Position numbers and translations under genes: made by a program
Virus record (IMG/VR): IMGVR_UViG_3300014208_000078
Location: 1 to 39,288 of that record
Strand: one strand, 5' to 3'
Origin: a virus
Taxonomy: Duplodnaviria; Caudoviricetes
Length of the DNA stretch: 39,288 nt
Notes under the pieces: model-generated
The model's input: the letters and a program-made list of their open reading frames with translations, nothing else
Databases searched by the model: none
What the model was told of the DNA's origin: nothing
In this document: positions 14,317 to 39,105 of the stretch, one piece after another
Numbering within the stretch: position 1 is the stretch's first letter
Layout: each line of letters opens with the position of its first letter

Positions 14317-16560
14317 ATGTTATTTCCCCAATTGGGCCCGGTCTACTATTCAGAAAAACATCAAAGTATATTGGCCAGAATGGAAGCGTTCTATGCAGAG
14401 AGTATAACCATAAATCAGTCTTTCTGGGCTGAAGCTGATACGGATACTCGATTTGAGACTGGTGATCAGACTTTATGGAATGATTTATATGGCAATCTTC
14501 CGGCTAATCGGGGAAGACAGTTTAATTTCAATCGTATTCGTCGCGTAATCAATATGATCTCAGGTCATCAAAGACGTAATCGTAAATCAACTATCGTTAC
14601 TCCAGTTGAAAATGGTGACGCTGAAACAGCTGATCAGTTTACTAAAGTCATGATGTGGATTAACAATCAAGAAAACGTACTTGATACTATAAGCGAATCA
14701 TTTCATGGAGCACTCGTTACTGGAATGAATCTACTTCAAGTTTGGGTAGATTATAGAAGTGATCCAGTATCGGGTAACATAAAAGTAGATAATTGTTCTT
14801 ATAATAGCTTTTTAATTGATCCCTATTTTCGAAAAGCTGATCTATCAGATTGCAATGCTTTATGGAAACGGTCGTTTTTAACTAAGCGTGAAGTGATCTC
14901 ACTACTTCCTGACCAATCAGAAGAGATCATTGGTCTTGTTGGTAATCAATCAGGTACTGGGAGGGATGGTAAATTTCAGTTCATAAACTAGTGTGAACTA
15001 TAAACCTTCTCTGATTGACTTGGAACTCCTTAGGGACAACAGGGCGGAAGCGAAAGCACCGTGAACGACTGAGTGAGAGGGCGCCGAAAGGTGATGCGAC
15101 AGTCTGAACTCTATAGTAATATAGAGAGGGAGATTCGAAGAAGTCTCCCCGCCACATAAGTGGTCACAAAAGTAACAGATTGGCCAGAATCATACAACTA
15201 CGGATATAAGAACTTACTAACGTATGATGAATTCTATTACCGTGATTATAGAACCCAGAAGATGCTATGTGACGCAGAAACTGGTGAGACCATGGAATGG
15301 AAAAGCGATAATCAAGAAGGTCTTGAAGCTTTTCTTATGCAATATCCATCAGTTACTGTTATAGAGTCTGAAGTACCAACGGTTAATCTTGCTATTGTTG
15401 TTCAAGGCAAGGTTATGTATGACGGTCCAAATCCAATTGGTACTGATAAGTATCCATTTGTTCCAGTGCTCGGTTATTACAATCCCCAGATGCCATATTT
15501 TCCATGGCGTATCCAGGGCGTTGTTAGGGGTCTTCGTGATGCTCAGTATTTATATAACCGAAGACGTATCATTGAACTTGATATCTTAGAGTCTCAAATT
15601 AACTCAGGCTGGATTTATAAAGAGAATGCTTTAGTTAATCCAAAAGATGTATTTATGTCTGGTCAAGGAAGAGGTCTTGCTCTTAAAGAAGATGCACAGA
15701 TGTCAGATGTTCAACAGATTATTGCTCCTCAAGTACCACCATCAATGATCCAATTGTCAGATTTACTCGCTAAAGAAGTTATGGAAATATCAGGGGTCAA
15801 TGAAGAATTACTTGGTTCAGCGATGGATGACAAGGCTGGTGTGTTGTCTATGCTACGACAAGGAGCTGGTCTTACAACGCTGCAAACGCTTTTTGATCAA
15901 CTTGATCGGTCTCAGAAGTTGCTGGGTGAAATAATAATTGATATAGTCCAAGCAAACTTTACTCCTGGTAAAATTAAACGAATCTTAGAAGAAGAAGAGC
16001 CGACTCCTCAGTTTTATAACAAGGCGTTTGGTAAATATAATGCAGTTGTTGAAGATGGTCTTAATACAAGTACACAAAAACAAATGCAATTTGCTCAGAT
16101 GTTACAGTTGCGTGAGGCTGGTGTTCCTATAACAACTCAAGATCTACTTGAAGCGGCTACTATCCAAGGTAAGAAGAAGATTATGGAAAATGCTGCTAAA
16201 CAAGAACAGCAAGCTCAGCAAATGCAGCAAATGCAGATGCAGTCTCAAATGCAACTGCAACAAGCTCAAATGGCAGATATGGAAGGTCGTCGGCAGGCAA
16301 ATATTGGTCTTGCGCATGAACGTGATTCAAGGGTTATGGAAAACTATTCTATGGCTGTTGAGCGCGAACATAAAGCAAATTCAGAAGATTCTGCTGCTGC
16401 ATTAGATCGTGTAAAAGCTCTGAAAGAATTAGAGTCTATGGATCTGACTCATTTACAAACACTTGTTGGATTGCTTTCTGGTTTGAAGGATCAAGAGACA
16501 GCTCAGTCTGAACAGGGAATGAAAAAAGTAGCTGCACAACCACTTCCTCAACAAGGATAA
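14317..16560 (+). CDS. Portal protein (P22-like), spliced: join(14317..14984,15183..16560), 681 aa
   Basis: 'FNFNRIRRVINMISGHQR' and 'YPFVPV..Y...GVVRGLRDAQYLYNRR' motifs, with a Gln-rich C-terminal barrel. Removing 14985-15182 gives in-frame ...KFQF-M-PESYNY... Confidence 0.9.
14985..15182 (+). ncRNA. Group I intron in portal gene (198 nt, no ORF)
   Basis: 5' exon ends in U and pairs AGUUCAU/GUGAACU with a U-G wobble; P3 CCUUCUC/GAGAGGG; P7 GACUG/CAGUC; terminal G; excision restores the frame. Confidence 0.9.
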
Positions 16561-18193: not shown

Positions 18194-19132
18194 ATGACTA
18201 AAAGACGAGGTCCATCAGTTGAGCAACGTGGTGAAATTGAAATGCCACCATTAGATCATCAATTCCCAGCAGAGATGGGAGTTCCTCAAGCCGCTCAAGC
18301 AGTAGAAGCAAGAGAAGTTGAGCAACTACAACAAGAGTATCAAGATCATGAACAAGAAGTTCTAGTAGAGCAAGACGAGCAATATCTTATTAATGAAGTA
18401 GCTCAAGAAGAACCAGAATTTTCTCCCACGCCAGTGGACCAATCCAGATTGGATTCCAATAAGAGACCAAAAACCAAAGAAGACAACTTCAGAGAAGTTC
18501 GTTTGGCTAAAGAAAGAGCAGAACGGGAACGGGACGCACTTATGTCTCAGATGCTCGAGATGCAGTCCAAATTACAGAACCAACAACAAGTTGCAAAACC
18601 TGTAGCTCCAGTAGAAGAAGAAAAAGATTGGTTTGATGGTCTTGATCCAGAGTCTTTAGTTGAAGGAAAGCAGCTTAAAAACATTGCTCAAGAGATGAAA
18701 GCAATGAAAAGGATGCTTAAAGAGCAACAAGCTCAGTCTCAAGAGATAGCAATGCAAGCAAAGATCAAAGCTCAATATCCAGACTTTGATGATGTGTTTA
18801 ATGCTCAGACTATTAGTAATTTAAATGAACAGTATCCAGATGTGGCTAATGCGCTTCGAGTAATGCCAGATGATTACAATAAAGCGACTGCTGCGTATAC
18901 TATGATTAAAAACTTAGGAATATATAAAGGGAACGAAGTGAAAAAACCTGCATATGAATCAGATATTTTAAGAGCTAAAGTTAATGCTGCTAAGCCAAGA
19001 CCTTTAGCATCAGTTAATCCACAACAAGGTGATAGCCCCCTATCAAAAGCTAATGCATTTGCTAATGGTTTAACACCAGACTTGAAAGCGCAAATGCTGA
19101 AGGAGATGCAGGCCGCGAGACGTGGTAACTAA
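18194..19132 (+). CDS. Putative capsid scaffolding protein
   Basis: Acidic, Gln/Glu-rich coiled coil; lies between portal and capsid; basic C-terminus. Confidence 0.6.
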   Translation: MTKRRGPSVEQRGEIEMPPLDHQFPAEMGVPQAAQAVEAREVEQLQQEYQDHEQEVLVEQDEQYLINEVAQEEPEFSPTPVDQSRLDSNKRPKTKEDNFREVRLAKERAERERDALMSQMLEMQSKLQNQQQVAKPVAPVEEEKDWFDGLDPESLVEGKQLKNIAQEMKAMKRMLKEQQAQSQEIAMQAKIKAQYPDFDDVFNAQTISNLNEQYPDVANALRVMPDDYNKATAAYTMIKNLGIYKGNEVKKPAYESDILRAKVNAAKPRPLASVNPQQGDSPLSKANAFANGLTPDLKAQMLKEMQAARRGN

Positions 19133-19770
19133 ATATTTTTTTTAGTTATTCTTCTATTGTTACAATTTTCTTTTCTGGTCGCCCATCTACAATTGGACGG
19201 TTCGTAATTACCATCATTGTTAATTCGATCTATTTCTTTTTTAGGTGGTCGACTTCCCATATCCTCCAAGAAATTTTCAAATTTAGACCATCTTTCACAA
19301 ACTTTAATTCCACGTCCACCGTAATTATGGTATCCGCTATCTTTTGGATTATTGCACCGTTGTCTCATTTGATGCCAAATGCCATAAATAGAACTTGTTG
19401 AAAGTTTATGAGTTGCAATCCTGCAGTGTTCGCAGCATTTAGAATTTCCTGCTAATAATTCTGATCCTCTTATTGTATAAACTCTTTTACAGTCGCATTC
19501 ACAAATATAAGAAGTTGTGTGCCTTTTTTCTTCAGATTTTTGTAAGACTTTCCATTTACCAAATGATTTTCCAATTATATCAAACGACCTGTCTTTGCTT
19601 TTTATTCGACAATCTAGACACCATTTATACTTTAATATATCTTCCTTTCTTTTGATTGATTCTGATCCACATATACATTTGCATCTATATCTTTTTATAT
19701 TGCTTTTAAGATCTAATCTTTTTGGCTCTTCGCTGATTATTGTCCAGTTTTCTATTTGTTTACTGATCAT
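19129..19770 (-). CDS. Free-standing HNH homing endonuclease
   Basis: Two CxC..CxxC N-terminal modules, then 'W.QMRQRCNNP....YHNYGGRGIKVCERW.KFENFLEDMG.RP....IDRINNDGNYEPSNCRWAT'; own promoter TTTACC-17 nt-TATACT on the minus strand near 19804-19829. Confidence 0.88.
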   Translation of the reverse strand: MISKQIENWTIISEEPKRLDLKSNIKRYRCKCICGSESIKRKEDILKYKWCLDCRIKSKDRSFDIIGKSFGKWKVLQKSEEKRHTTSYICECDCKRVYTIRGSELLAGNSKCCEHCRIATHKLSTSSIYGIWHQMRQRCNNPKDSGYHNYGGRGIKVCERWSKFENFLEDMGSRPPKKEIDRINNDGNYEPSNCRWATRKENCNNRRITKKNI

Positions 19771-20470: not shown

Positions 20471-20501
20471 AGTGCTTCATTTGTCCTCCTTTTTTGATCG
20501 T

Positions 20502-20529
20502 GGGACGCTCTCATCCGGCGTCCCTTTTT
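20502..20529 (+). terminator. Rho-independent terminator
   Basis: GGGACGC/GCGTCCC stem followed by a T-run. Confidence 0.7.
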
Positions 20530-20531
20530 AT

Positions 20532-21164
20532 TTAGATCTTTTTTTTGTTAATCCTAGTGTTGTTTAGATTTTCTTTTCTTGTGACCCATCTGCAGTTTTC
20601 TAATTCATAGTTTCCATTATTATTTGTTCGGTCTAACTCTAGACCACTGGGTTTTTGTCCCATATCTTCTAAGAAGTTTTCAAATTTTAACCAACGATCA
20701 CAAACTGTAATTCCGCGTCCGCCATAATCTTTAAACTTAGTTTGATTTGGGTTTGTGCATCTTTGTATCATAGACCCCCAAGTGGTATATGTTCTGGAGT
20801 GAACCATTCCATGCTTAGTTGACCCGCATTTTCTGCAGGCTGTTGAATCGCCAAATCTTAATCTTATACCTTTGAGTTGTTTGATAAATCCACATTCACA
20901 TTGAACTTCGTAGCACGATCTTTTATCTTCTGAGGCTACTCGTTTTAAGACGGTCCATTGGCCAAACTTATCTCCTCTTTTTAGTTCTTTGTCTTGATAT
21001 TTGCATGAGCTACAGGATTTAGAAGCTTGTCTTTTTAGTTGATCATCCCTAACTTCTCTTTTAAATCCACAATTACATATACATAGATATAGTATTTTTT
21101 TTTCTTTTCTTCGCGAAAGATTTATAACCTTCCAATTGGCATACTGCTTTCCTATTATAATCAT
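20532..21164 (-). CDS. Free-standing HNH homing endonuclease (paralog of 19129-19770)
   Basis: 'WGSMIQRCTNP....KDYGGRGITVCDRWLKFENFLEDMG.KP...ELDRTNNNGNYELENCRWVT'. Confidence 0.88.
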   Translation of the reverse strand: MIIIGKQYANWKVINLSRRKEKKILYLCICNCGFKREVRDDQLKRQASKSCSSCKYQDKELKRGDKFGQWTVLKRVASEDKRSCYEVQCECGFIKQLKGIRLRFGDSTACRKCGSTKHGMVHSRTYTTWGSMIQRCTNPNQTKFKDYGGRGITVCDRWLKFENFLEDMGQKPSGLELDRTNNNGNYELENCRWVTRKENLNNTRINKKKI

Positions 21165-21177
21165 ATATTCCTTTATA

Positions 21178-21207
21178 TTGATTTTTTATAAGTTAAATGA
21201 CTATAAT
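21178..21207 (+). promoter_or_regulatory. Sigma70-like promoter for the capsid operon
   Basis: TTGATT-18 nt-TATAAT. Confidence 0.55.
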
Positions 21208-21212
21208 ATTGC

Positions 21213-21302
21213 TAAGCGTTATCGAGAAGTCGCTTATCTCAAAAACTTCGGCGTATTCTGAGCTTCGCCATCTCAACGACGTACAAAGATCTCGTCAGTC
21301 TT
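21213..21302 (+). promoter_or_regulatory. Three tandem pseudoknot-like units in the capsid 5' leader
   Basis: Interleaved stems UAAGCG/CGCUUA with GAGA/UCUC; GGCG/CGCC with UGAG/CUCA; GACG/CGUC with AAGAU/GUCUU. Confidence 0.55.
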
Positions 21303-21379
21303 AAGTATATAGTAAAACCCAAAAATGATCCACTAATAAAGTGACAGTTTTGGAAAATATTTAAACTTAAGGAGCCTAT

Positions 21380-23000
21380 ATGGCTATAACTACTACTAGC
21401 TCGTTGCCAGCGCCTGTACAACAGTCGTTTAGCTACAAGCTTTTGTCAGTTCCAGTTCCGTCTATGATTCATTAACTAAATTTGTGAATCTAAAACCCTC
21501 TCTGATTGACTTGGATAGCCGATGGGCCGACAAGGGGCAAGCGTAATGGTAGCCTGAACGACTGAGCGAGAGGGGCTCTTGAAAAAGAGTATGCGACAGT
21601 CTGCTCATGGACTATATATGAAATCCATGAGGCTGGATCGAAGAATCTGGCCCGCCTGAAAAGGTCAGTAAGCGAAAGCTGAAAGTAACAGAATGAAAAT
21701 TCCAGCGATGCTAAAAAACATGCCTCGTAATGGTGGTACAACTCTACGTATGCGTAGATATAATCCACTTGCAACAGCTCTTGTTCCATTAGGAAACACT
21801 GGCGTTACTCCCCCAGCACAACAATTAACTGCTGTGGATATTGATGCTAAAATCTCTTTCTACGGTTTCAATTAGGTGCCGTAGAATTGATTCTGAATAG
21901 ACCTACGTTATCCTTAATGAACAGGTAACGTTACAGAATCAAGATCCCGTTAAGAGAAAAAGCGGGATTAAAACCCTCTCTGATTGACTTGGAAGCCCGA
22001 TGGGGTGACAAGGCGGAAGGCGAAAGCCACCGTGAACGACTTAGCGAGAGGGGCTCTGCAACTTACCAGAGCATGCGAAAGTCTGAGCACGAACTATATA
22101 TGAAATTCGTGAGGTTGATCCGAAGAGGTTGGCCCGCCTAAGCAATTAGGTCACAAAAGTAACAGAATGTTTGAATGAAGCTGCTGCTCGTTTAGGTGTT
22201 TCTCTTCGTCAAACAGAAGATGAACTAACAAGAGATATGCTTGCTTCAACAGCAGCGTTTATCAACTGTACAGCTGGTGTGAACGGCGACAACCCGACTG
22301 AATTAACTCGTTCAGATGTTGATGATGTAGTTCGTGCTTTGCTTGGAAACAATGCATACACGATCTTAGACAACATTGAAGGGGAAGATAAATTTGGTAC
22401 AGCTCCTGTTCGTGATGCGTATTTTGCGCTTTGCCATACAGATCTTACTAAAGATATGGACTCAGTTGATGGATTCATTCAAAAGAATCAATATCCATCT
22501 CCTATGAATGCATTGCGTTCAGAATGGGGTGCAATTGGTAACTTGAGATTCTTAGTTTCATCTATTGGATCAATCACTCAATCTGCTTCAAACTTAGGCG
22601 CGAACGTGTATAACATTTTCTGCGTAGGTATGGAAGCTTATGCTTGTATTGAGCAAGACGGTAAATATTGCTGTCTATAAATTTTCTCTGATTGACTTGG
22701 AAGCCCTACGGGGTGACAAGGGGCAAGCGAAAGCAGCCTGAACGACTAAGTGAGAAAACTCTGAAAAGAGAAGCGATAGTCTGAACTCATATGAAAGTAT
22801 GAGAGGGAGATCCGAAGAGGTTTCCCCGCCCAGAAGTGGGTCACAAAAGTAACAGAATGTATAGCGCAAGCTTTATCTATCGTCCTCCAATGTACGATGG
22901 ACCTTTGGCTCTTAATGCTTCTGTTGGTTACAAGTTTGCTGAAGTACCTCGTATTCTCAATGACCTTTGGGTATTGAATCTACGTTGCACATTAGCGTAA
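21380..23000 (+). CDS. Major capsid protein (N4-gp56-like), spliced: join(21380..21472,21696..21866,21901..21950,22170..22662,22860..23000), 315 aa
   Basis: AAGGAG RBS; exons total 948 nt = 316 codons with no internal stop. Junctions read SMIH|KIPAM, ISFYG|TYVIL, QDPV|LNEAA, EQDG|YSASF. Motifs 'KNMPRNGGTTLRMRRY', 'AYFALCHTDL', 'SEWGAIGNLRFLVS' and 'SVGYKF' are capsid-like. Confidence 0.88.
21473..21695 (+). ncRNA. Group I intron 1 of capsid gene (223 nt, no ORF)
   Basis: P1 GAUUCAU/GUGAAUC with U-G at the splice site; P3 CCCUCUC/GAGAGGG; P7 GACUG/CAGUC; ends AAGUAACAGAAUG. Confidence 0.9.
21867..21900 (+). other. 34-nt core-less mini-intron (P1 + P10 + terminal G only)
   Basis: The guide at 21873-21886 pairs 9 bp with the 5' exon (U-G at the junction) and 5 bp with the 3' exon; the insert ends in G; it contains an in-frame TAG and shifts the frame; excision restores FYG-TYVILNEQV. 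Confidence 0.75.
21951..22169 (+). ncRNA. Group I intron (third insertion) of capsid gene (219 nt, no ORF)
   Basis: P1 AUCCCGU/GCGGGAU; P3 CCCUCUC/GAGAGGG; P7 GACUU/AAGUC; ends AAGUAACAGAAUG. Confidence 0.9.
22663..22859 (+). ncRNA. Group I intron (fourth insertion) of capsid gene (197 nt, no ORF)
   Basis: P1 AGACGGU/GCUGUCU; P3 UUUUCUC/GAGAAAA; P7 GACUA/UAGUC; ends AAGUAACAGAAUG. Confidence 0.9.
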
Positions 23001-23015
23001 CTTTTAGGAGATATT

Positions 23016-24008
23016 ATGGATAATACAATATTACAACAAGGTCGTTTTACAGCTACTGGATCTGCGGTAACTTTACAACTGCGTGCAGATGTAGATTGGA
23101 TAGAAGTTTATAACACTACTATTGGTGCTGCTTCTCAAACTACAGCTGTTGGTGTTAAGTACAAATGGTTCCGTGGGTTTCCTGCTGGTGCTAAATGGAC
23201 TACATTTAAATCTAACGCAGCTAACGCAGCTAACTTAGAGCAGTATTTAACTTCATCTGGATTTACTTTAGTTGATAGCTCAGCAAATCCTAACGGAACA
23301 TTGAATGCTACAATTACAGCTATTTCTAACGCTGCTATTCCTGTTGTTTCAAACTCTGGAACAAACGGTCTATCTGCTGGTGATGTTGTACGTTTATTCA
23401 ACGTTGCATCTGCTCAACAAGTTGGTGGATTTGATTTCACAGTTGGTTATAACACATTAACAAGTGGTACATTCTCTCTTGACTATATGTCACAGATTGT
23501 TGCTGGTACTACTGGTTCATGGCGTAAACTTAGCTTTGATCCATTATTCTACCCACGTCGTCGTTATATTACAAAAATTACTGCAGCTGCTTCAGCTGTT
23601 GTAACATTGTCTGTAACTCATGGCTATACAGTCGGTCAACAAGTTCGTTTTGTTGTCCCTGCTGCGTATGGCATGGTAGAAATTGATGGGCTTCTTGGAA
23701 CAATTACTGCTGTTAATACAACAACAACAAGTGGAAACACAATTACTGTAGATATTGATTCATCAGCGTTTACAGCATTTGCATGGCCACTTTCAGCTGC
23801 AGTTCCATTCTCAGCTGCTGAAGTTGTTCCAGTTGGTGAAAATTCAGCGCAAGCTATCTCTTCATCAGTTGACACACTTGATGATGCTACTTTAAACACA
23901 GGATATATTGGAATGGTTCTTGCTGGTGGCGCAAGCTGTCCAGGTGGTGCTACTTCTGATGTTGTTTACTGGGTTGCTGGTAAATCATTTAGCGTTGATA
24001 ACGCGTAG
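23016..24008 (+). CDS. Virion structural protein with two FCCH-like beta domains
   Basis: Follows the capsid gene; repeated 'ITAISNA..PVV...NGLSAGDVVRL' and 'ITKITAA.SAVVT....HGYTVGQQVRF'. Confidence 0.65.
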   Translation: MDNTILQQGRFTATGSAVTLQLRADVDWIEVYNTTIGAASQTTAVGVKYKWFRGFPAGAKWTTFKSNAANAANLEQYLTSSGFTLVDSSANPNGTLNATITAISNAAIPVVSNSGTNGLSAGDVVRLFNVASAQQVGGFDFTVGYNTLTSGTFSLDYMSQIVAGTTGSWRKLSFDPLFYPRRRYITKITAAASAVVTLSVTHGYTVGQQVRFVVPAAYGMVEIDGLLGTITAVNTTTTSGNTITVDIDSSAFTAFAWPLSAAVPFSAAEVVPVGENSAQAISSSVDTLDDATLNTGYIGMVLAGGASCPGGATSDVVYWVAGKSFSVDNA

Positions 24009-29597: not shown

Positions 29598-30143
29598 TCA
29601 TAATAAAAGTTTTCTTTTATGCCTTACTTTATATTTCATATTGATTTCTGAAATTGATGATAGTCCAATATTTAATAATTTTGCTATATCACTTTGAAAA
29701 AGGCCTTCTCGTAACAAATTGACAACTTTTTTCTGTAAGTCTTCATCGATAAAATAACCTGGATGATTTTTACCTTTGTTACTTCTTAGTCCTATCTTAA
29801 AAGCATGCTTTACGTTATCACTTCTAGTGCTTAATTCTAAGTTATCCAAATTGTTATTAGTTTTATTACCATCTATATGATTAATTTCTTCTTTAGTACA
29901 ACCTAAAAATGTTTTAGCTATTAATCTGTGAGATAATTGCATTAATCCTTTTCCGTTTTTCCTTAAATTAACATGTAGATAACCATCTCTTCTGAGAGCG
30001 GGAGATAGTTTTTTTAGCGGCAAATTCCACTCATATCTTCTATCAGACCATCCATTTGTTTTCATAATAGTTCTTGCTAGTGCATATATATTTCCATATA
30101 TATCGCATGCATATATACCTTCATAGCCAGGAATTTGTTTCAT
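29598..30143 (-). CDS. NUMOD4-HNH homing endonuclease with C-terminal HTH
   Basis: 'KQIPGYEGIY....GNI' (NUMOD4) and 'HRLIAKTF...INHIDGNKTNNNLDNLE...N.KHA'; GGAGA RBS before ATG at 30143. Confidence 0.9.
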   Translation of the reverse strand: MKQIPGYEGIYACDIYGNIYALARTIMKTNGWSDRRYEWNLPLKKLSPALRRDGYLHVNLRKNGKGLMQLSHRLIAKTFLGCTKEEINHIDGNKTNNNLDNLELSTRSDNVKHAFKIGLRSNKGKNHPGYFIDEDLQKKVVNLLREGLFQSDIAKLLNIGLSSISEINMKYKVRHKRKLLL

Positions 30144-30187
30144 ATATCTCCCTACGGTTATCATAACTGTTTAGAGTATACACAATA

Positions 30188-33117: not shown

Positions 33118-33192
33118 TAGTTCTTGCATTAATTTGTCTCACGACTTTAAATAAGCATGTAAAATTTTTAATAACTCTTTGTGGAGATTTAT

Positions 33193-35334
33193 ATGTCTAT
33201 AAGAAAGAATAGTGCTTATGGGATTAACAATCCCCTTCAAACATTAGCGCCAGAGCCAATTGTTGCTCAAAGAGCACCGACGGCTAGCGACCAGGCTCCT
33301 ATCGGGACAATTTGGATCGTAGAACCATCTAATGCTTATTATGTACTTACATCTAGTGGTACATGGACTACGGCTTCTGCTTCTGGATCATCTGTAGCAT
33401 CATTAACCATTACTGGTGGAGCTGGTGATGTATTAACAGTTAACGCTGGTGGAGACACTGTTTTAGGGGGTACTCTTGACGTTGCTGGTGTATCAGTATT
33501 TGCATCAGATGTAACTGTAACAGGTAACCTTGTAGCTAATGGCGACTTTGATATCTCTTCAGCTTCAGCAATTTCATTTACTTCAACAGCTAACCTTGCT
33601 CCTTCTATTTTGTTTGAAACAAACGGTGGAACAACTGAAACGTTAGAATTGTACGCTAACCAAGGTACTTCTTTAAACTCTATTGATATTCACAGCGATG
33701 CTGGTGGTATTGCTCTTGAAGCTGCTGCTAAGGCTGACGTTAAAGCTATCAATCTTATTGCTGGTGGCGGTGGTATTACACTTGATGCTGTTCTTACTTC
33801 AGCAGTTAACGTTGTTGGTGCTGGACAAGACATTCAATTGAATGCAACAGGTGGTTCTATTGCTTTAACAGCAACTGAAGCAACTGCTGGAGCAATCACT
33901 TTAAGCGCTTCTGATGCTGCTGGTACAATCTTGCTCTCTGGTGTTGGCGGACTTACTGCTCAGACAACTAACGCAACAATGTCTATTCAAACTGGAACAG
34001 GTGCTTTAAACGTCAATACTGTTGGTACAGCAAACGTTACTACTATTGGTAATGGCACAGGTGCTAGCCAAGTTGTCATCGCTGCTGGTACAGCTGGCAT
34101 TAACGTTGGTGCAAACGCTGTTGCTCATACAGTCACAGTTGGTAATAACACTGGTGCTTCTATTGTGGCAATCAATGCTGGTACTGCTGCTGCTGGTGCT
34201 ATCAATATTGGTACAACAGCAAACGATGTGCCAATAACTATCGGTAACTCAACTGGTGCTACTGACATAACAATTGACGCTGGTACATCTGGAGTAGGTA
34301 TTGGAGCAAACGCAATAGCGCATCCTATTACCATTGGAAATCAAACTGGGGCAACTTCTGTAAGTATTGCTGGTGGTACTGCTGCTGCTGGTTTTGTTGA
34401 TATTGCTACTGGAGCGCATGATACACCAATTACTATTGGTAACTCAACTGGTGCAACAGCTATTATCATCGATGCTGGTACTTCAGGGGTTCTTATTGGT
34501 AATAATGCGATAGCGCATCCAGTTACTATCGGAAATCAAACTGGTGCTACCGTTGTAACAATTGATGCTGGTACAGCTGGTGCTGGTGCTATTGATATTG
34601 GACGTAGCTTAAATGATGTTGCTATTACTATTGGTAACGCAACTGGCGCAACTCCTGTAAATATCGTTGGTGGTACAAGTGGTGTTGGAATCTCATCTAC
34701 TGGTACTGGTGATATTTCTCTTGCTAGTGCTGATACAGTTTTAATTGATGGTGTAGGCGTTGTAGAAATTAATTCTTCTGCTGGCGTAATTGGCATTGGT
34801 AACGATGCAGTTGCTCAAAATATAAATATCGGTTCAGGCGCAGCAGCTCGTACAATCACAATCGGTAACGTAACTACAACAACTGGTCTTGTACTTAACT
34901 CTGGTACAGGCGGAATCGCTCTTGCTTCAACAACAACTGGTGATATCACTCTTGCTTCAGCTGACACATGCTTAATAGATTGTGCTGGCGTACTTGAGCT
35001 TAACTCATCTGCTGGAATAATCAGTATTGGTAATGATGCGGTTGCTGCTGCAATTAATATCGGTTCTGGTGCATCAAACAGAGATATCACAATCGGTAAC
35101 ACAACTGCTTCAACAACTATCGTATTAAATACTCCAGTTGGAACAACAGTATCTATTCCTAAAGGTATTGATATTGGCGTAAGCGTTCTTTCAGGTGCTG
35201 GATCACCGAATGGTGTGACCACCGCGGCAGCTGGTTCATTGTGGCTACGTACAGATCCTGCAGGGGCTGCATCAAGAATTTACGTTAACACTGATTCGGG
35301 CACAACTTGGACTAACGTAACTTGCGCTGCTTAG
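33193..35334 (+). CDS. Long repetitive tail fibre/spike protein
   Basis: GGAG RBS before ATG at 33193; many 'ITIGNxTGAT' repeats; C-terminal 'GAGSPNGVTTAAAGSLWLRTD'. Confidence 0.75.
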   Translation: MSIRKNSAYGINNPLQTLAPEPIVAQRAPTASDQAPIGTIWIVEPSNAYYVLTSSGTWTTASASGSSVASLTITGGAGDVLTVNAGGDTVLGGTLDVAGVSVFASDVTVTGNLVANGDFDISSASAISFTSTANLAPSILFETNGGTTETLELYANQGTSLNSIDIHSDAGGIALEAAAKADVKAINLIAGGGGITLDAVLTSAVNVVGAGQDIQLNATGGSIALTATEATAGAITLSASDAAGTILLSGVGGLTAQTTNATMSIQTGTGALNVNTVGTANVTTIGNGTGASQVVIAAGTAGINVGANAVAHTVTVGNNTGASIVAINAGTAAAGAINIGTTANDVPITIGNSTGATDITIDAGTSGVGIGANAIAHPITIGNQTGATSVSIAGGTAAAGFVDIATGAHDTPITIGNSTGATAIIIDAGTSGVLIGNNAIAHPVTIGNQTGATVVTIDAGTAGAGAIDIGRSLNDVAITIGNATGATPVNIVGGTSGVGISSTGTGDISLASADTVLIDGVGVVEINSSAGVIGIGNDAVAQNINIGSGAAARTITIGNVTTTTGLVLNSGTGGIALASTTTGDITLASADTCLIDCAGVLELNSSAGIISIGNDAVAAAINIGSGASNRDITIGNTTASTTIVLNTPVGTTVSIPKGIDIGVSVLSGAGSPNGVTTAAAGSLWLRTDPAGAASRIYVNTDSGTTWTNVTCAA

Positions 35335-35361
35335 TTAGCTTTTTATAAGACAATTGAATTA

Positions 35362-35390
35362 TCAACCCGTGACAAAACCTCACGGGTTGA
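35362..35390 (+). terminator. Rho-independent terminator-like hairpin
   Basis: TCAACCCGTGA/TCACGGGTTGA followed by ATTTT. Confidence 0.65.
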
Positions 35391-35408
35391 ATTTTATGGG
35401 AGACTTTT

Positions 35409-35747
35409 ATGCCGATTACAACTAATGGAATAGTGAGAGCTCGATTTGAAGTTGCTCGAGAAATGGCTTTTGGAGATATTACCAATTCGTTCACCAGAAT
35501 TAGCTCAGTTTTTGCAGATAACTTTAGTGTGCTGTATGTACAAAACTTTACTGATGTAAATATAGATTTTTCTATTAGCTATGCTGGAACAGATGTGAGC
35601 TTTACGCTTGCTCCAAATGGAACACTATCAAGTGATATGGACACTAACCAAGTACAAATAGCTCAAGGAGAGGCTGCTTGGTGTAAATATAGAAGCGGCG
35701 CTCCAACAAGTGGATTCGTTCAAGTATCTGCAATTACTGCTGTTTAG
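35409..35747 (+). CDS. Small tail-associated protein
   Basis: GGAG RBS; beta-rich 112 aa between fibre genes. Confidence 0.6.
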   Translation: MPITTNGIVRARFEVAREMAFGDITNSFTRISSVFADNFSVLYVQNFTDVNIDFSISYAGTDVSFTLAPNGTLSSDMDTNQVQIAQGEAAWCKYRSGAPTSGFVQVSAITAV

Positions 35748-35755
35748 GAGATAAT

Positions 35756-37063
35756 ATGTCAGGTATTTTTAATAGAAATTCAGCTTCTGCTATAGGAGCT
35801 GTTGATAGCCTTACTGGTAACTCAGGTGGCGCAGTTAGTCCAAATATAGCTGGTAATATAACAGTAGTTGGTACTGGTGTTATTGACGTTGTCGGTACTC
35901 CTGGAACCAATACCTTAACTATTAGCTCATCAAGCGTAGCAAGTTCATATGTTACAGATAGCGGCACTGCAACTCCTGCTGGTGGTATTTTAGATGTTGT
36001 TGGATCTCATGGTATCAATACATCAGGTGCTGGTGATACAGTTACCATTGCTGTTAACAACACGTTAACACTTGGTGATCTGTCTCCAGTTGGTGCAGGT
36101 AGTTCTTCTTTAACTTTAACTACTGGTGATCTAACAGTTACTTCAGGTAACGTAAATTTACCAACAACTGCGGACGCTGATAATGGTGTTATTGAAGTTA
36201 ACTCTGCACGATTTATACACTCTTACGGAACTAATAACTCTTTTCTTGGATCTGGTGCAGGTAACTTTGTTTTAACTGGTCTTAATGCAACTGGTATTGG
36301 TAAAAATGCCCTAGCTGCGCTGACTGATGGTGGTTCCAATACTTCTGTTGGTGTTAATTCATCGCTTCTTTTAAATGGTGGTGATAGAAATTGTGCTCTA
36401 GGAGTAGCTTCTTTACAGACTATTACTACGGGCAGTGACAATATTGCACTAGGTTATTCAGCTGGATCATCATATGCAACAACTGATAGTAATAACATTG
36501 CTATTGGAAGCATTGGTGTTGCTGCTGACTCTGGAAGAATACGTATTGGTACTAATGGTACTCATACATCAACATTCTTTGCTGGTATTGAAGGTGTTAA
36601 CGTTGGTTCTGTTGCTGAAGTAGTTACTATAGATGCTGATGAACTTGGTAGTGCTGTCATTACTGCTGGTGCTGGTATTACAATAACACCAGGCGCTAAT
36701 ACAATTACTATTACTAACACAGGTGGTGGTGGTGTGTTTGCATGGACTGAGATTACTGCTGCTTCTGCTGGTATGGCTGTTAACAATGGATATATTGCCA
36801 ATAGAGCTACTTTGGTTACATTGACACTTCCTGCTGTTGCAGCTGTTGGAGAAGTTGTTCGTGTTGCTGGAAAAGGTGTTGGTCTATGGCTTATAGCTCA
36901 AAATGCTGGTCAGACGATACATTTTGGAGCAAGCAATACAACTACTGGTGCTGGTGGTTCTCTTGCAGCTATCTTGCAATATGATTGCGTAGAGTTACTT
37001 TGTACAACTGCTAATACAGATTTCGTAGTGTTGTCTGTTTTAGGTAATCTAACCGTCGTATAG
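35756..37063 (+). CDS. Tail fibre protein
   Basis: Gly/Thr-rich; YadA-head-like 'NxAxGxxAL' repeats; C-terminal 'NNGYIAN...TLTLPA..AVGEVVRV'. Confidence 0.75.
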   Translation: MSGIFNRNSASAIGAVDSLTGNSGGAVSPNIAGNITVVGTGVIDVVGTPGTNTLTISSSSVASSYVTDSGTATPAGGILDVVGSHGINTSGAGDTVTIAVNNTLTLGDLSPVGAGSSSLTLTTGDLTVTSGNVNLPTTADADNGVIEVNSARFIHSYGTNNSFLGSGAGNFVLTGLNATGIGKNALAALTDGGSNTSVGVNSSLLLNGGDRNCALGVASLQTITTGSDNIALGYSAGSSYATTDSNNIAIGSIGVAADSGRIRIGTNGTHTSTFFAGIEGVNVGSVAEVVTIDADELGSAVITAGAGITITPGANTITITNTGGGGVFAWTEITAASAGMAVNNGYIANRATLVTLTLPAVAAVGEVVRVAGKGVGLWLIAQNAGQTIHFGASNTTTGAGGSLAAILQYDCVELLCTTANTDFVVLSVLGNLTVV

Positions 37064-37071
37064 GATAAAAA

Positions 37072-39105
37072 ATGGCAACAAATAATGGTATAAATAATTC
37101 ATGTTTAACTGGTATTACTGTTTCTGGTGGAGCAGTATCGGTTGACTCTGGAACAAGCGCTTGTGGTATTTCTACAGACGCTTCAGCTACCACACTTTCA
37201 ATTGGTACAGGAAATGCTGTTAAAACGATCACTGTGGGATCGACCAATACAACTTCAACTACTAACTTAACCTCTGGTAGTGGTGGGGTTCAAGTTGCTA
37301 CATTTATGGGTCTTCCTGCAACTTCTGCAACAAATGGTCAAATTAAAATGAATTCGATACCTATGTTTCATACATATGGCGTATCGAACACCTTTGCAGG
37401 CCAATCAGCTGGTAACTTTACTACAACTGGTACAGATAACGTTTGTATTGGACGTTTAAATTCAGCAGCTCTTACCTCAGGGATAGACAACGTTATTATT
37501 GGATCTCAAGATAATGGTGGCGGTGGATTCTTTGGAGTTCTAAGCGGTAATTACAATACAGCAATCGGTAAAAATGCGTTAAATACTGCTTCAGGAAGCT
37601 ATAATATAGCTATCGGAAATGGCGCTGGTTATTTTTACACAACTACTGATAGTAGTAACGTTGCTATTAATAATACTGGAAGCGGTTTTACAGGAGAATC
37701 TAATACGCTTCGTATTGGTGATGCTACTGGAACTGGAGTTCGTCAGCTTAATAAATCGTTTATTCATGGTATTTATGGAACAACTGCTGCTGGTACGACT
37801 TCTTCGATTCCTGTGGTTACAAGCACTGGACAATTGTCAACGATTGCCCCTGCTTCATCGACTATTGGTTTTTCTACAGATGCAAATACAGCTACTATTA
37901 ATCTAGGAACTGGAGCTGCTGTTAAGGGCGTTACCCTTGGATCTACGAACTCTACATCTGCAACAACGGTTCAAAGTGGTTCAGGTGCTTTAAATGTAAC
38001 AGCTACTGGAGGTGCACTTACTGTTAACAGTGGTGTGGGCGCGTTAGGTATTTCTACTGATGCTTCTGCAACTACACTTTCAATTGGAACTGGTGGTGCA
38101 GTTAAAACGATCACCATGGGGTCTACAAATACAACATCGACAACCAACTTAACTTCTGGATCTGGTGGAGTTCAGGTAGCTACATTCTTGGGTTTACCAA
38201 CGACATCTTCAACTGTTGGACAGATTAAGGTTAATGGAACTGCTGCTTTTCATACATATGGAACAGATCAATTGTTTGTAGGGGCCGGAGCTGGTAATTT
38301 TACTTTGACAGGAAATAATAATACTGGAATTGGTGATTTAGCATTAAGTGCTTTAACAAGCGCATCGTTTAATACAACTGTTGGATCATCTGCTGGAAAA
38401 TCTCTTACTTCTGGTGGTCAAAATACAGCTATGGGGCTATCTGCTTTATTTGCAGAAACAACAGGAGTTCAAAATACTTCTATTGGGTATGGATCAATGG
38501 TTGCTGCTAATGGAGCAGTTGCTAATACGACTCTTGGATATAATGCATTAAATGGAATTACTACAGGAACTTTCAATATAGCAATAGGTCAATCTGCTGG
38601 CTCTGCTAATACTACAAGCGACTCTTCTAACATTTATATTATGTCATTAGGTGTTGCTGGTGAATCAAACACTATTCGTATTGGTTATCAGACTGGTGCT
38701 GGCGCTTCTCAGCAAAATAAAGCTTTTATAACAGGTGTACGTGGCATTACAACAGTTAACGTTGATGCACTGCCTGTTTTAATTGATAGTGCTGGTCAAC
38801 TCGGTACTATTTCTTCATCTATTCGTTTTAAAGAGAATGTTGAAGACATGGCAAATTCATCTTCTGACATATTAAAATTGCGCCCTGTTACATTTGATTT
38901 AAAAAATCGTCCTACTAGCAAGCGTCAAGTCGGTCTTATCGCTGAAGAAGTTTATGAAGTTATGCCAGACTTGGTTGTTCATAACATTGATGGTGAAATT
39001 GAATCTGTTAAATATCATGATCTTCCAGCATTGCTTTTAAATGAACTTCAAAAAGCTGTTAAACGCATTGAAGTACTAGAAGCAAAATTAGCAGAGAGGG
39101 ATTAA
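37072..39105 (+). CDS. Tail fibre with C-terminal intramolecular chaperone (peptidase S74-like)
   Basis: 'SSIRFKENVEDM...ILKLRPVTF...GLIAEEV.EVMPDLV...VKYHDL...L' plus coiled coil; 'NTAIGxxAL' repeats. Confidence 0.88.
   Translation: MATNNGINNSCLTGITVSGGAVSVDSGTSACGISTDASATTLSIGTGNAVKTITVGSTNTTSTTNLTSGSGGVQVATFMGLPATSATNGQIKMNSIPMFHTYGVSNTFAGQSAGNFTTTGTDNVCIGRLNSAALTSGIDNVIIGSQDNGGGGFFGVLSGNYNTAIGKNALNTASGSYNIAIGNGAGYFYTTTDSSNVAINNTGSGFTGESNTLRIGDATGTGVRQLNKSFIHGIYGTTAAGTTSSIPVVTSTGQLSTIAPASSTIGFSTDANTATINLGTGAAVKGVTLGSTNSTSATTVQSGSGALNVTATGGALTVNSGVGALGISTDASATTLSIGTGGAVKTITMGSTNTTSTTNLTSGSGGVQVATFLGLPTTSSTVGQIKVNGTAAFHTYGTDQLFVGAGAGNFTLTGNNNTGIGDLALSALTSASFNTTVGSSAGKSLTSGGQNTAMGLSALFAETTGVQNTSIGYGSMVAANGAVANTTLGYNALNGITTGTFNIAIGQSAGSANTTSDSSNIYIMSLGVAGESNTIRIGYQTGAGASQQNKAFITGVRGITTVNVDALPVLIDSAGQLGTISSSIRFKENVEDMANSSSDILKLRPVTFDLKNRPTSKRQVGLIAEEVYEVMPDLVVHNIDGEIESVKYHDLPALLLNELQKAVKRIEVLEAKLAERD

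What the first reader, a model, noticed from the sequence alone, without database searches (positions are those of the whole stretch)
21380..23000. Major capsid gene split into five exons by four intervening sequences
Exons of 93, 171, 50, 493 and 141 nt join into one 948-nt ORF (315 aa). The ORF track shows only two fragments, so automatic annotation would miss most of the gene. Each insertion brings an in-frame stop shortly after its 5' splice site (TAA immediately at 21473, TAG 21873, TGA inside the third insertion, TAA 22678). Phage group I introns are best known from nucleotide-metabolism, replication, terminase and lysin genes, so four interruptions in the most highly expressed structural gene is unusual. 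Inference: capsid output depends on four splicing events and could therefore respond to Mg2+, GTP or ribosome traffic.
Basis: partly seen in the sequence, partly recalled or inferred. Interest (0 to 1): 0.8.

Follow-up and report, generated by a model that had tools for sequence, protein, structure and literature searches.

The report
Capsid mini-intron addressed to neighbour's ribozyme
This phage's capsid gene is split by three inserts with the fold of complete self-splicing introns and by a 34-base stub that has splice-site guides but no catalytic core; the stub is predicted to base-pair right beside the next intron, whose RNA enzyme likely cuts out both.

Summary
The gene model is right: five exons (93, 171, 50, 493, 141 nt) join to a 315-aa N4-gp56-family capsid protein, 309/315 identical without gaps to an intronless relative. 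Several introns in a capsid gene are known and common in this phage family (37 of 77 close relatives carry one). The surprise is insert 2 (21867-21900): 34 nt with the P1 and P10 guides and terminal G of a group I intron but no core. 86 distinct such stubs (28-53 nt) sit at the same site in related phages. A full intron follows in 98 of 99 stub-first loci (one is cut off). The stub's tail pairs with the exon stretch ending 8 nt before that intron's 5' splice site (606 of 640 positions paired, with compensatory changes), and the tail changes with the helper's site (290, 314 or 350). Most likely the helper's core splices the stub in cis, then itself (about 75%). No RNA or bench data here. The scan noted such mini-introns before on other DNA; I found none in print.

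The parts
21369..21374 (+). Shine-Dalgarno-like AAGGAG before the capsid ATG
   Evidence: sequence
21380..21472 (+). capsid exon 1 (93 nt)
21473..21695 (+). insert 1: ORF-less intron with group I core, 223 nt, at coding position 93
   Evidence: same site used in L036, L044, L053, L125
21696..21866 (+). capsid exon 2 (171 nt); its last 9 nt (21858-21866) form the 5' strand of the stub's P1
21867..21900 (+). insert 2: 34-nt coreless mini-intron at coding position 264
21873..21877 (+). P10 half of the stub's guide, complementary to exon 3 bases 21901-21905
   Evidence: sequence; third-base covariation in 86 of 86 stubs
21878..21886 (+). P1 half of the stub's guide; G21878 pairs U21866 at the 5' splice site; 9 bp
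   Evidence: pair probabilities 0.71-1.0
21887..21895 (+). tether strand of the stub, complementary to exon 3 bases 21934-21942
21901..21950 (+). capsid exon 3 (50 nt): P10 target 21901-21905, tether target 21934-21942, helper P1 strand 21943-21950
21951..22169 (+). insert 3: ORF-less intron with group I core, 219 nt, at coding position 314; proposed helper. Guide 21962-21969, P7 22036-22042 with 22079-22084, G-site pair G22038-C22083
22170..22662 (+). capsid exon 4 (493 nt)
22663..22859 (+). insert 4: ORF-less intron with group I core, 197 nt, at coding position 807
22860..23000 (+). capsid exon 5 (141 nt including stop)
14985..15182 (+). fifth insert of the same intron family, in the portal gene (198 nt); outside the finding

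Best explanation
The capsid gene carries three inserts with a complete group I core and one 34-nt stub without a core, and the stub is likely excised by the catalytic core of the intron 50 nt downstream, to which it is predicted to be tethered by base pairing. Shown by sequence comparison: the gene model; the cores; the stub's 5' U.G helix (P1), its 3'-exon guide (P10) and terminal G; a tether helix that starts where the stub's P1 ends and ends where the helper's P1 begins; the stub's dependence on a downstream intron at the site its tail addresses. Inferred: stub P1, tether and helper P1 form a stacked junction next to the helper's short linker into P3, so either P1 can dock in the one active site (the stub's guide G lies 9 nt from the tether, the helper's cleavage site 8 nt from it). 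The core would add free guanosine at U21866, take G21900 into its G site with P10 aligning exon 3, join exons 2 and 3, release a 35-nt RNA, and then splice itself in the ordinary way. The stub would have to leave before the helper does. Inferred history: a full intron at this site lost its core once a neighbour could do its chemistry; stub and helper now spread together, and the tail is swapped together with the helper.
For: Cores: 70 aligned introns pair 93.6% of cells against 71.3% shuffled; P3 99%, P4, P6 and P7 100%, G-site G-C pair 70 of 70. nhmmer and BLAST find four cores in the window and none at the stub. Stubs: 86 distinct at position 264, 28-53 nt, all 86 stop or frameshift the gene, and 0 of 46 distinct complete stub-bearing genes keep a stop after joining. 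P10 third base Watson-Crick in 86 of 86 (C:G 61, U:A 11, G:C 7, A:U 7), a position the search pattern left free. Dependence: of 99 stub-first capsid loci, 84 match a strict core motif within 260 nt, 14 more have a variant intron at the expected site, 1 ends at the exon end. In a protein-picked baseline, 9 of 9 stub loci have an intron at 290, 314 or 350, against 5 of 68 without a stub. Helpers can lack stubs: 7 of 62 introns at 290. Tether: 606 of 640 positions paired in one fixed register over 80 stubs, against 28-46% in shifted registers. A stub's tail pairs better with its own exon than with other exons of the same class in 49 of 49 (site 290) and 18 of 18 (site 314), 0 of 10000 permutations as high. 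Blind scan of the whole downstream coding sequence: best target plus 8 nt is a real intron site in 35 of 44, 0.12 expected. In L381 the tail addresses site 314 across an intron at 278. The same stub head carries different tails with different helpers: this window (314) against L214 (290); L240 (290) against L216/L281 (314), with identical capsid proteins in L240 and L281. Full-length introns occur at the same site with the same guide (L082). A stub at 275 and six at 259 show the same guides and a tail pairing just upstream of the next intron. Group I cores can act on guides and substrates supplied from outside in vitro (abstracts of PMC2709566, PMC2532722, PMC4094466).
Against: No RNA or bench evidence of excision was obtained here for this phage. 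The stub-first pattern forced the 5' U, most of the guide and the terminal G, and my aligner favours U and G ends, so these three features are not independent evidence in those loci (79 helper-first loci were not so forced by the pattern). Introns at 314 had a stub in 24 of 24 loci, so part of the co-occurrence may be linkage by shared descent or co-conversion. Covariation was not significant for the five class-350 stubs (3001 of 10000), and the blind test missed 9 of 44. Stubs lack the conserved 3' motif that precedes the terminal G of the full introns (0 of 86), so how their G reaches the G site is unexplained. In the precursor fold P10 is not populated (probability 0), as expected before step 1 but untested. 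Sequences are related, so counts overstate independent events; the capsid tree is poorly resolved (17 of 122 inner branches well supported).
Confidence: 0.75

Rival explanations
1. The stub is excised in trans by any group I core of the phage (an excised intron or another intron of the transcript); the tether only keeps exon 3 folded.
For: Four similar cores lie in this genome. Engineered cores excise internal segments in trans (abstracts of PMC2532722, PMC4094466).
Against: The tether ends exactly at one helper's P1 and moves with the helper's site. No stub was found with only upstream or distant introns.
Confidence: 0.08
2. A protein (host or phage nuclease and ligase, or an intron-encoded maturase) removes the stub by recognising its helices.
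For: The stub has no catalytic fold. Many helpers in relatives are 700-800 nt and could encode proteins.
Against: This window's helper and its other introns have no ORF. The U.G pair, P10 and terminal G are the recognition elements of group I chemistry (established knowledge). A protein route does not explain the fixed 8-nt register to a neighbour's splice site.
Confidence: 0.06
3. The stub self-splices as a minimal ribozyme, as reported for the 67-nt fungal PaSSU intron.
For: PaSSU-type introns have P1, P10 and a helix between the intron's middle and the 3' exon (PMC3160393, results and discussion read).
Against: PaSSU-type introns are 56-81 nt and are drawn with a P7 and G site. These stubs go down to 28 nt, and after guide and tether only a few variable bases remain (13-17 nt from tether start to terminal G in 83 of 86). 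Self-splicing would not need a neighbour at an addressed site.
Confidence: 0.04
4. The ribosome hops over the stub (T4 gene 60-like bypass; recalled), with no RNA excision.
For: A stop codon and a hairpin follow the Gly codon at the 5' junction.
Against: 0 of 86 stubs end in a Gly codon matching the take-off codon. Lengths fall in all three frames. P10 covariation has no role in hopping.
Confidence: 0.02
5. The stub is a dead remnant or an assembly error, and the gene is broken.
For: No transcript was seen here.
Against: 86 different stubs at one site in independent contigs, intact reading frames in 46 of 46 complete genes, and compensatory changes in P1, P10 and tether.
Confidence: 0.02

Closest known systems
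Group I introns in phage capsid genes: LittleE and Tuc2009 (PMC3706429, passages read); three in a crAss-like Zeta capsid gene (PMC10136315, passages read); Twort gene with three introns (title seen in the reference list of PMC11878797)
   Same: Interrupted structural gene, 5' exon ending in U, intron ending in G, several introns per gene. Inserts 1, 3, 4 and the portal insert are of this kind.
   Different: In the passages read, each described intron is a full-size element. The family here is not detected by Rfam, and one insert has no core.
Small degenerate group I introns of fungal SSU rDNA (PaSSU 67 nt; Arthonia, Porpidia; PMC3160393, parts 1-2 of 3 read)
   Same: Very short; P1 with G.U, P10, and a helix between the intron's middle and the 3' exon.
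   Different: Those are 56-81 nt, in rRNA, end in U, are modelled with their own P7 and reported to self-splice. The stubs are 28-53 nt, in mRNA, end in G, have no room for P7, and their exon helix abuts the P1 of a specific full intron.
Engineered trans excision-splicing ribozymes and spliceozymes (PMC2532722, PMC4094466) and guide-less Azoarcus ribozyme with guide in trans (PMC2709566); abstracts read
   Same: A group I core removes an internal segment of RNA that is not itself; guide and core can be on separate pieces.
   Different: Those are laboratory constructs, and in the first two the ribozyme recognises the sites. Here the substrate carries its own guide and an address, occurs in nature and is likely acted on in cis.
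N4-gp56 family major capsid protein (TIGR04387; PHROG 1357)
   Same: The joined protein's intronless twin P0001 scores 151.5 bits over residues 4-312; exon 4 alone scores 77.
   Different: No cultured close relative: best phage records are under 30% identical.

Membership tests
Group I intron (inserts 1, 3, 4, portal) | [quoted passage not shown] | tested here: met
   U.G in 68 of 70 aligned introns, 6 of 7 P1 pairs with two-sided changes; window folds
Group I intron (inserts 1, 3, 4, portal) | P3/P7 pseudoknot core with P4, P6, P8 | tested here: met
   P3 99%, P4 100%, P6 100%, P7 100%, P8 99.5% of cells paired, with two-sided changes; top covarying columns are these pairs. P4 is only 4 bp as drawn.
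Group I intron (inserts 1, 3, 4, portal) | G-binding G-C pair next to a bulge in P7; terminal G | tested here: met
   G-C in 70 of 70; all four window inserts end in G
Group I intron (inserts 1, 3, 4, portal) | Match to an Rfam model | tested here: not met
   no hit at gathering score in the window, none at E up to 10 in 20500-24000; PMC11878797 notes that available models may miss phage variants; subgroup not assigned
Group I intron (inserts 1, 3, 4, portal) | Guanosine-dependent self-splicing | not testable with these tools
   needs bench work
Group I intron (34-nt stub) | P1 with U.G, P10, terminal G | tested here: met
Group I intron (34-nt stub) | Own catalytic core (P3-P8) | tested here: not met
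   34 nt; no profile hit at the stub; nearly all bases used by guide and tether. It is therefore not filed as a self-splicing group I intron.
PaSSU-type small degenerate introns | Residual P7 with G site inside the small intron | tested here: not met
   13-20 nt from tether start to the end, of which 8-13 pair with the exon; the rest is variable
PaSSU-type small degenerate introns | Helix between intron middle and 3' exon | tested here: met
   tether
Translational bypass (T4 gene 60 type; recalled) | Matched take-off and landing codons | tested here: not met
   0 of 86
N4-gp56 family major capsid protein | TIGR04387 score above cut-off over the full length | tested here: met
   on P0001 (309/315 identical to the joined product) and on exon 4
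N4-gp56 family major capsid protein | HK97 fold | tested here: inconclusive
   model of P0001 had mean pLDDT 40; no solved relative by sequence; no fold search run

The most novel reading that the evidence does not exclude
These stubs are a natural class of addressable, coreless introns: a 28-53-nt RNA that carries only its splice-site guides and a swappable 9-bp address that docks it beside any full group I intron, which then works twice as a small spliceosome-like enzyme. The address has been re-pointed to at least three helper sites, and helpers of different core types serve. The same logic may explain the small fungal rDNA introns whose middle pairs with the 3' exon.
Probability: 0.6. Interest if true: 0.9.

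Novelty: new variant of a known kind. Interest (0 to 1): 0.82.

Why it matters
If confirmed, it is a natural case of one ribozyme splicing two introns, with guide and catalyst on separate elements. That separation is the step proposed for the rise of trans-acting splicing machines, here testable in a transcript of about 450 nt. It gives simple design rules (guide, 9-bp address ending 8 nt before the helper's splice site, terminal G) for programmable RNA excision. It also shows that 30-40-nt frame-breaking inserts in essential phage genes can be live introns, which annotation would call errors or pseudogenes, and that a large phage intron family is missed by Rfam.

Tried and rejected
Rfam gave no hit. 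The look-up of sequencing runs listed no RNA holder, which is no evidence either way, so no reads could be laid. The structure model of P0001 was too poor to use (pLDDT 40) and no solved relative was found. Of the stub-pattern loci, 26 of 111 viral and 106 of 120 metagenome loci had no capsid match and were dropped as chance matches; the metagenome scan covered 10 of 64 parts. Short inserts called by my aligner without P1/P10 pairing (L101, L129, L191, L221, L291 second call, L312 second call, L466, L502, and L617, L623) were dropped as alignment artefacts. An early idea of a hairpin between the stub's 5' loop and its tail was dropped once the tail-exon pairing explained the tail. A regular-expression tail classifier mislabelled L252 (45 of 46 matched; the same stub pairs at 314). 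The host was not determined: 18 genome-bin loci have scattered labels, 4 of them Chlamydiae, mostly on phage-sized contigs. Literature searches that found no description of coreless or neighbour-dependent group I introns: (also 8, 26, 39, 48, 61 for context). The library lacks most subscription papers, and no supplements were read.

Full report
Context. The window is a whole 39,288-base virus record with terminase, P22-like portal, capsid and tail genes. The host is unknown.

The observation. The joined 315-aa protein matches intronless homologs end to end: 309/315 and 311/315 identity without gaps to P0001 and P0002, and no gap near any junction in 104 of 104 full-length homologs among the 120 listed. 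P0001 is an N4-gp56 family major capsid protein (TIGR04387 151.5 bits, cut-off 60; PHROG 1357). The inserts are 223, 34, 219 and 197 nt.

Three inserts have a group I core. Inserts 1, 3 and 4, and a fifth copy in the portal gene (14985-15182; joined product 681 aa), are homologous. I aligned them with 66 related ORF-less introns, kept from 72 that passed filters of length (190-240 nt), two short motifs and under 90% similarity. A P1, P3-P9 structure drawn on insert 3 is paired in 93.6% of cells against 71.3% in shuffles and 38-46% in slid registers; P3, P4, P6, P7 and P8 are at 99-100% with two-sided changes, and the G-site G-C pair is invariant. The structure was drawn from one member, which favours it over slid controls, but the top mutual-information pairs are the same helices. 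Rfam does not detect the family. The family occupies dozens of sites in this capsid gene. In a baseline picked by a 56-aa piece of exon 4, 37 of the 77 loci that cover the site carry at least one full intron (79 loci examined, 2 truncated). Capsid introns are in print (PMC3706429, PMC10136315, passages read). So this part is a new member of a known kind.

The 34-nt insert. It cannot hold a core. [quoted passage not shown] Pattern scans found it is a family: 85 of 111 viral and 14 of 120 metagenome matches lay in capsid genes, each with a 28-41-nt insert at coding position 264. With other scans the total is 86 distinct stubs of 28-53 nt; 65 shift the frame, all 86 stop or shift it, and none ends in a codon that would allow a matched ribosome hop. 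The pattern forced the U, much of the guide and the G, so the free positions matter: the third base of exon 3 and its guide partner are Watson-Crick in 86 of 86, in four pair types, and two stubs found without the pattern show a compensatory P1 change. None of 46 distinct complete stub-bearing genes has a stop after joining. Full-length introns with the same guide occur at the same site (L082, also L101, L119), which suggests origin by loss of the core (inference).

Dependence on a neighbour. In 98 of 99 stub-first loci an intron follows at position 290, 314 or 350 (L381: 278, then 314); the last locus ends at the exon end. In the baseline, 9 of 9 stub loci have an intron at one of these sites, against 5 of 68 without a stub. 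Searching from the helper side, 55 of 62 capsid loci with an intron at 290 had a stub (49 at 264, 6 at 259) and 7 had none; 24 of 24 with an intron at 314 had one. So stubs need helpers and helpers at 290 and 350 do not need stubs. The 24 of 24 at 314 shows that linkage also contributes.

The tether. The stub's tail, starting 9 nt after the guide G, is complementary to the exon stretch ending 8 nt before the helper's 5' splice site, the base next to the helper's own P1. In this window 21887-21895 pairs 21934-21942, flush with the stub's P1 on one side and the helper's P1 (21943-21950 with 21962-21969) on the other; all three helices have pair probabilities of 0.7-1.0 in short and long folds. 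Over 80 stubs with a called helper, 606 of 640 positions pair in this one register, against 28-46% when shifted by 1-2 nt, with compensatory changes at synonymous exon positions. Own exon beats other exons of the class in 49 of 49 (290) and 18 of 18 (314), 0 of 10000 permutations; the five class-350 stubs are too alike to test (3001 of 10000); helper sites of some short loci were inferred from where the exon match ended. Tails pair 8.5-11.5 bp at their own helper's site and 3.6-5.2 bp at the other two. A blind scan of each tail along the whole downstream coding sequence points to a real intron site in 35 of 44 cases, 0.12 expected. In L381 the tail addresses 314 across an intron at 278. Identical stub heads carry different tails with different helpers (this window and L214; L240 and L216/L281; L229 and L209), and the window's tail recurs behind another head (L304), so tail and helper appear to move as a unit. 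The capsid tree is weakly resolved, but well-supported branches alone force at least 6 changes for class 290 and 5 for class 314, consistent with horizontal spread.

How it most likely works. The tether places the stub's P1 at the foot of the helper's P1, beside the 4-nt linker into the helper's core, with both cleavage sites 8-9 nt from the junction. I infer that the core docks the stub's P1 first, cleaves with free guanosine, binds the stub's terminal G, joins exons 2 and 3 on P10, and then splices itself. Group I cores are known to use outside guides and to excise internal segments in vitro (abstracts of PMC2709566, PMC2532722, PMC4094466). Unshown: any excision in this phage (no RNA run was listed), the order of steps, and how the stub's G is positioned without the 3' motif of full introns. 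Earlier notes of this scan report RNA evidence of excision for stubs in other phages; I could not check it.

Comparison and novelty. The nearest natural precedent is the fungal PaSSU type (56-81 nt; P1, P10, a helix to the 3' exon, a proposed P7; PMC3160393). The stubs fail its P7 feature and fail membership as self-splicing introns, but work like the substrate half of a group I intron. My searches found no paper on coreless introns that depend on a neighbour; the library is incomplete. The scan has noted such mini-introns in at least eight findings on other DNA, two with a tether idea (seen in the same turn as the stub table). The register counts, the blind test, the three helper classes and the head-tail swaps are my own tests.

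Verdict. Observation confirmed; interpretation partly supported. The multi-intron capsid gene is ordinary for this family. The addressed coreless stub is the finding of interest: new variant of a known kind, interest 0.82, mechanism about 75%.

Noticed in passing
window 14985-15182: The portal gene is split by a 198-nt intron of the same family; joined ORF 14317-16560 gives 681 aa without stops.
   Followed up: yes
window 19129-19770 and 20532-21164 (minus strand); also 29598-30164: Free-standing endonuclease-like ORFs (PHROG 374 twice, just upstream of the capsid gene; HNH_3 in the tail region). They could mobilise the ORF-less introns in trans; untested.
   Followed up: no
L214, L268, L294, L297, L307 and other introns at position 290: Long P1 loops carry a stretch complementary to the 3' exon up to about position 312, like an extended P10 of 11-15 bp.
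   Followed up: no
L247, L313, L352 (site 290); L219, L227, L248, L283 (site 350): Helpers at the same site have cores of different sequence types, so stubs seem specific for the helper's site, not its core sequence.
   Followed up: partly
L551, L554, L559, L575, L582, L583 (site 259); L128 (site 275): Two further stub families at other sites in more distant capsid genes, each with P1, P10 and a tail pairing 5-7 nt before the next intron (290 and 366).
   Followed up: partly
L611-L628: Relatives in genome bins carry scattered host labels, 4 of 18 Chlamydiae; L628 has a stub with a helper at 314.
   Followed up: partly
window 33181-39105: Long Gly/Thr-rich tail-fibre-like genes with 93/102-nt repeats and a Peptidase_S74 domain at the end.
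   Followed up: no
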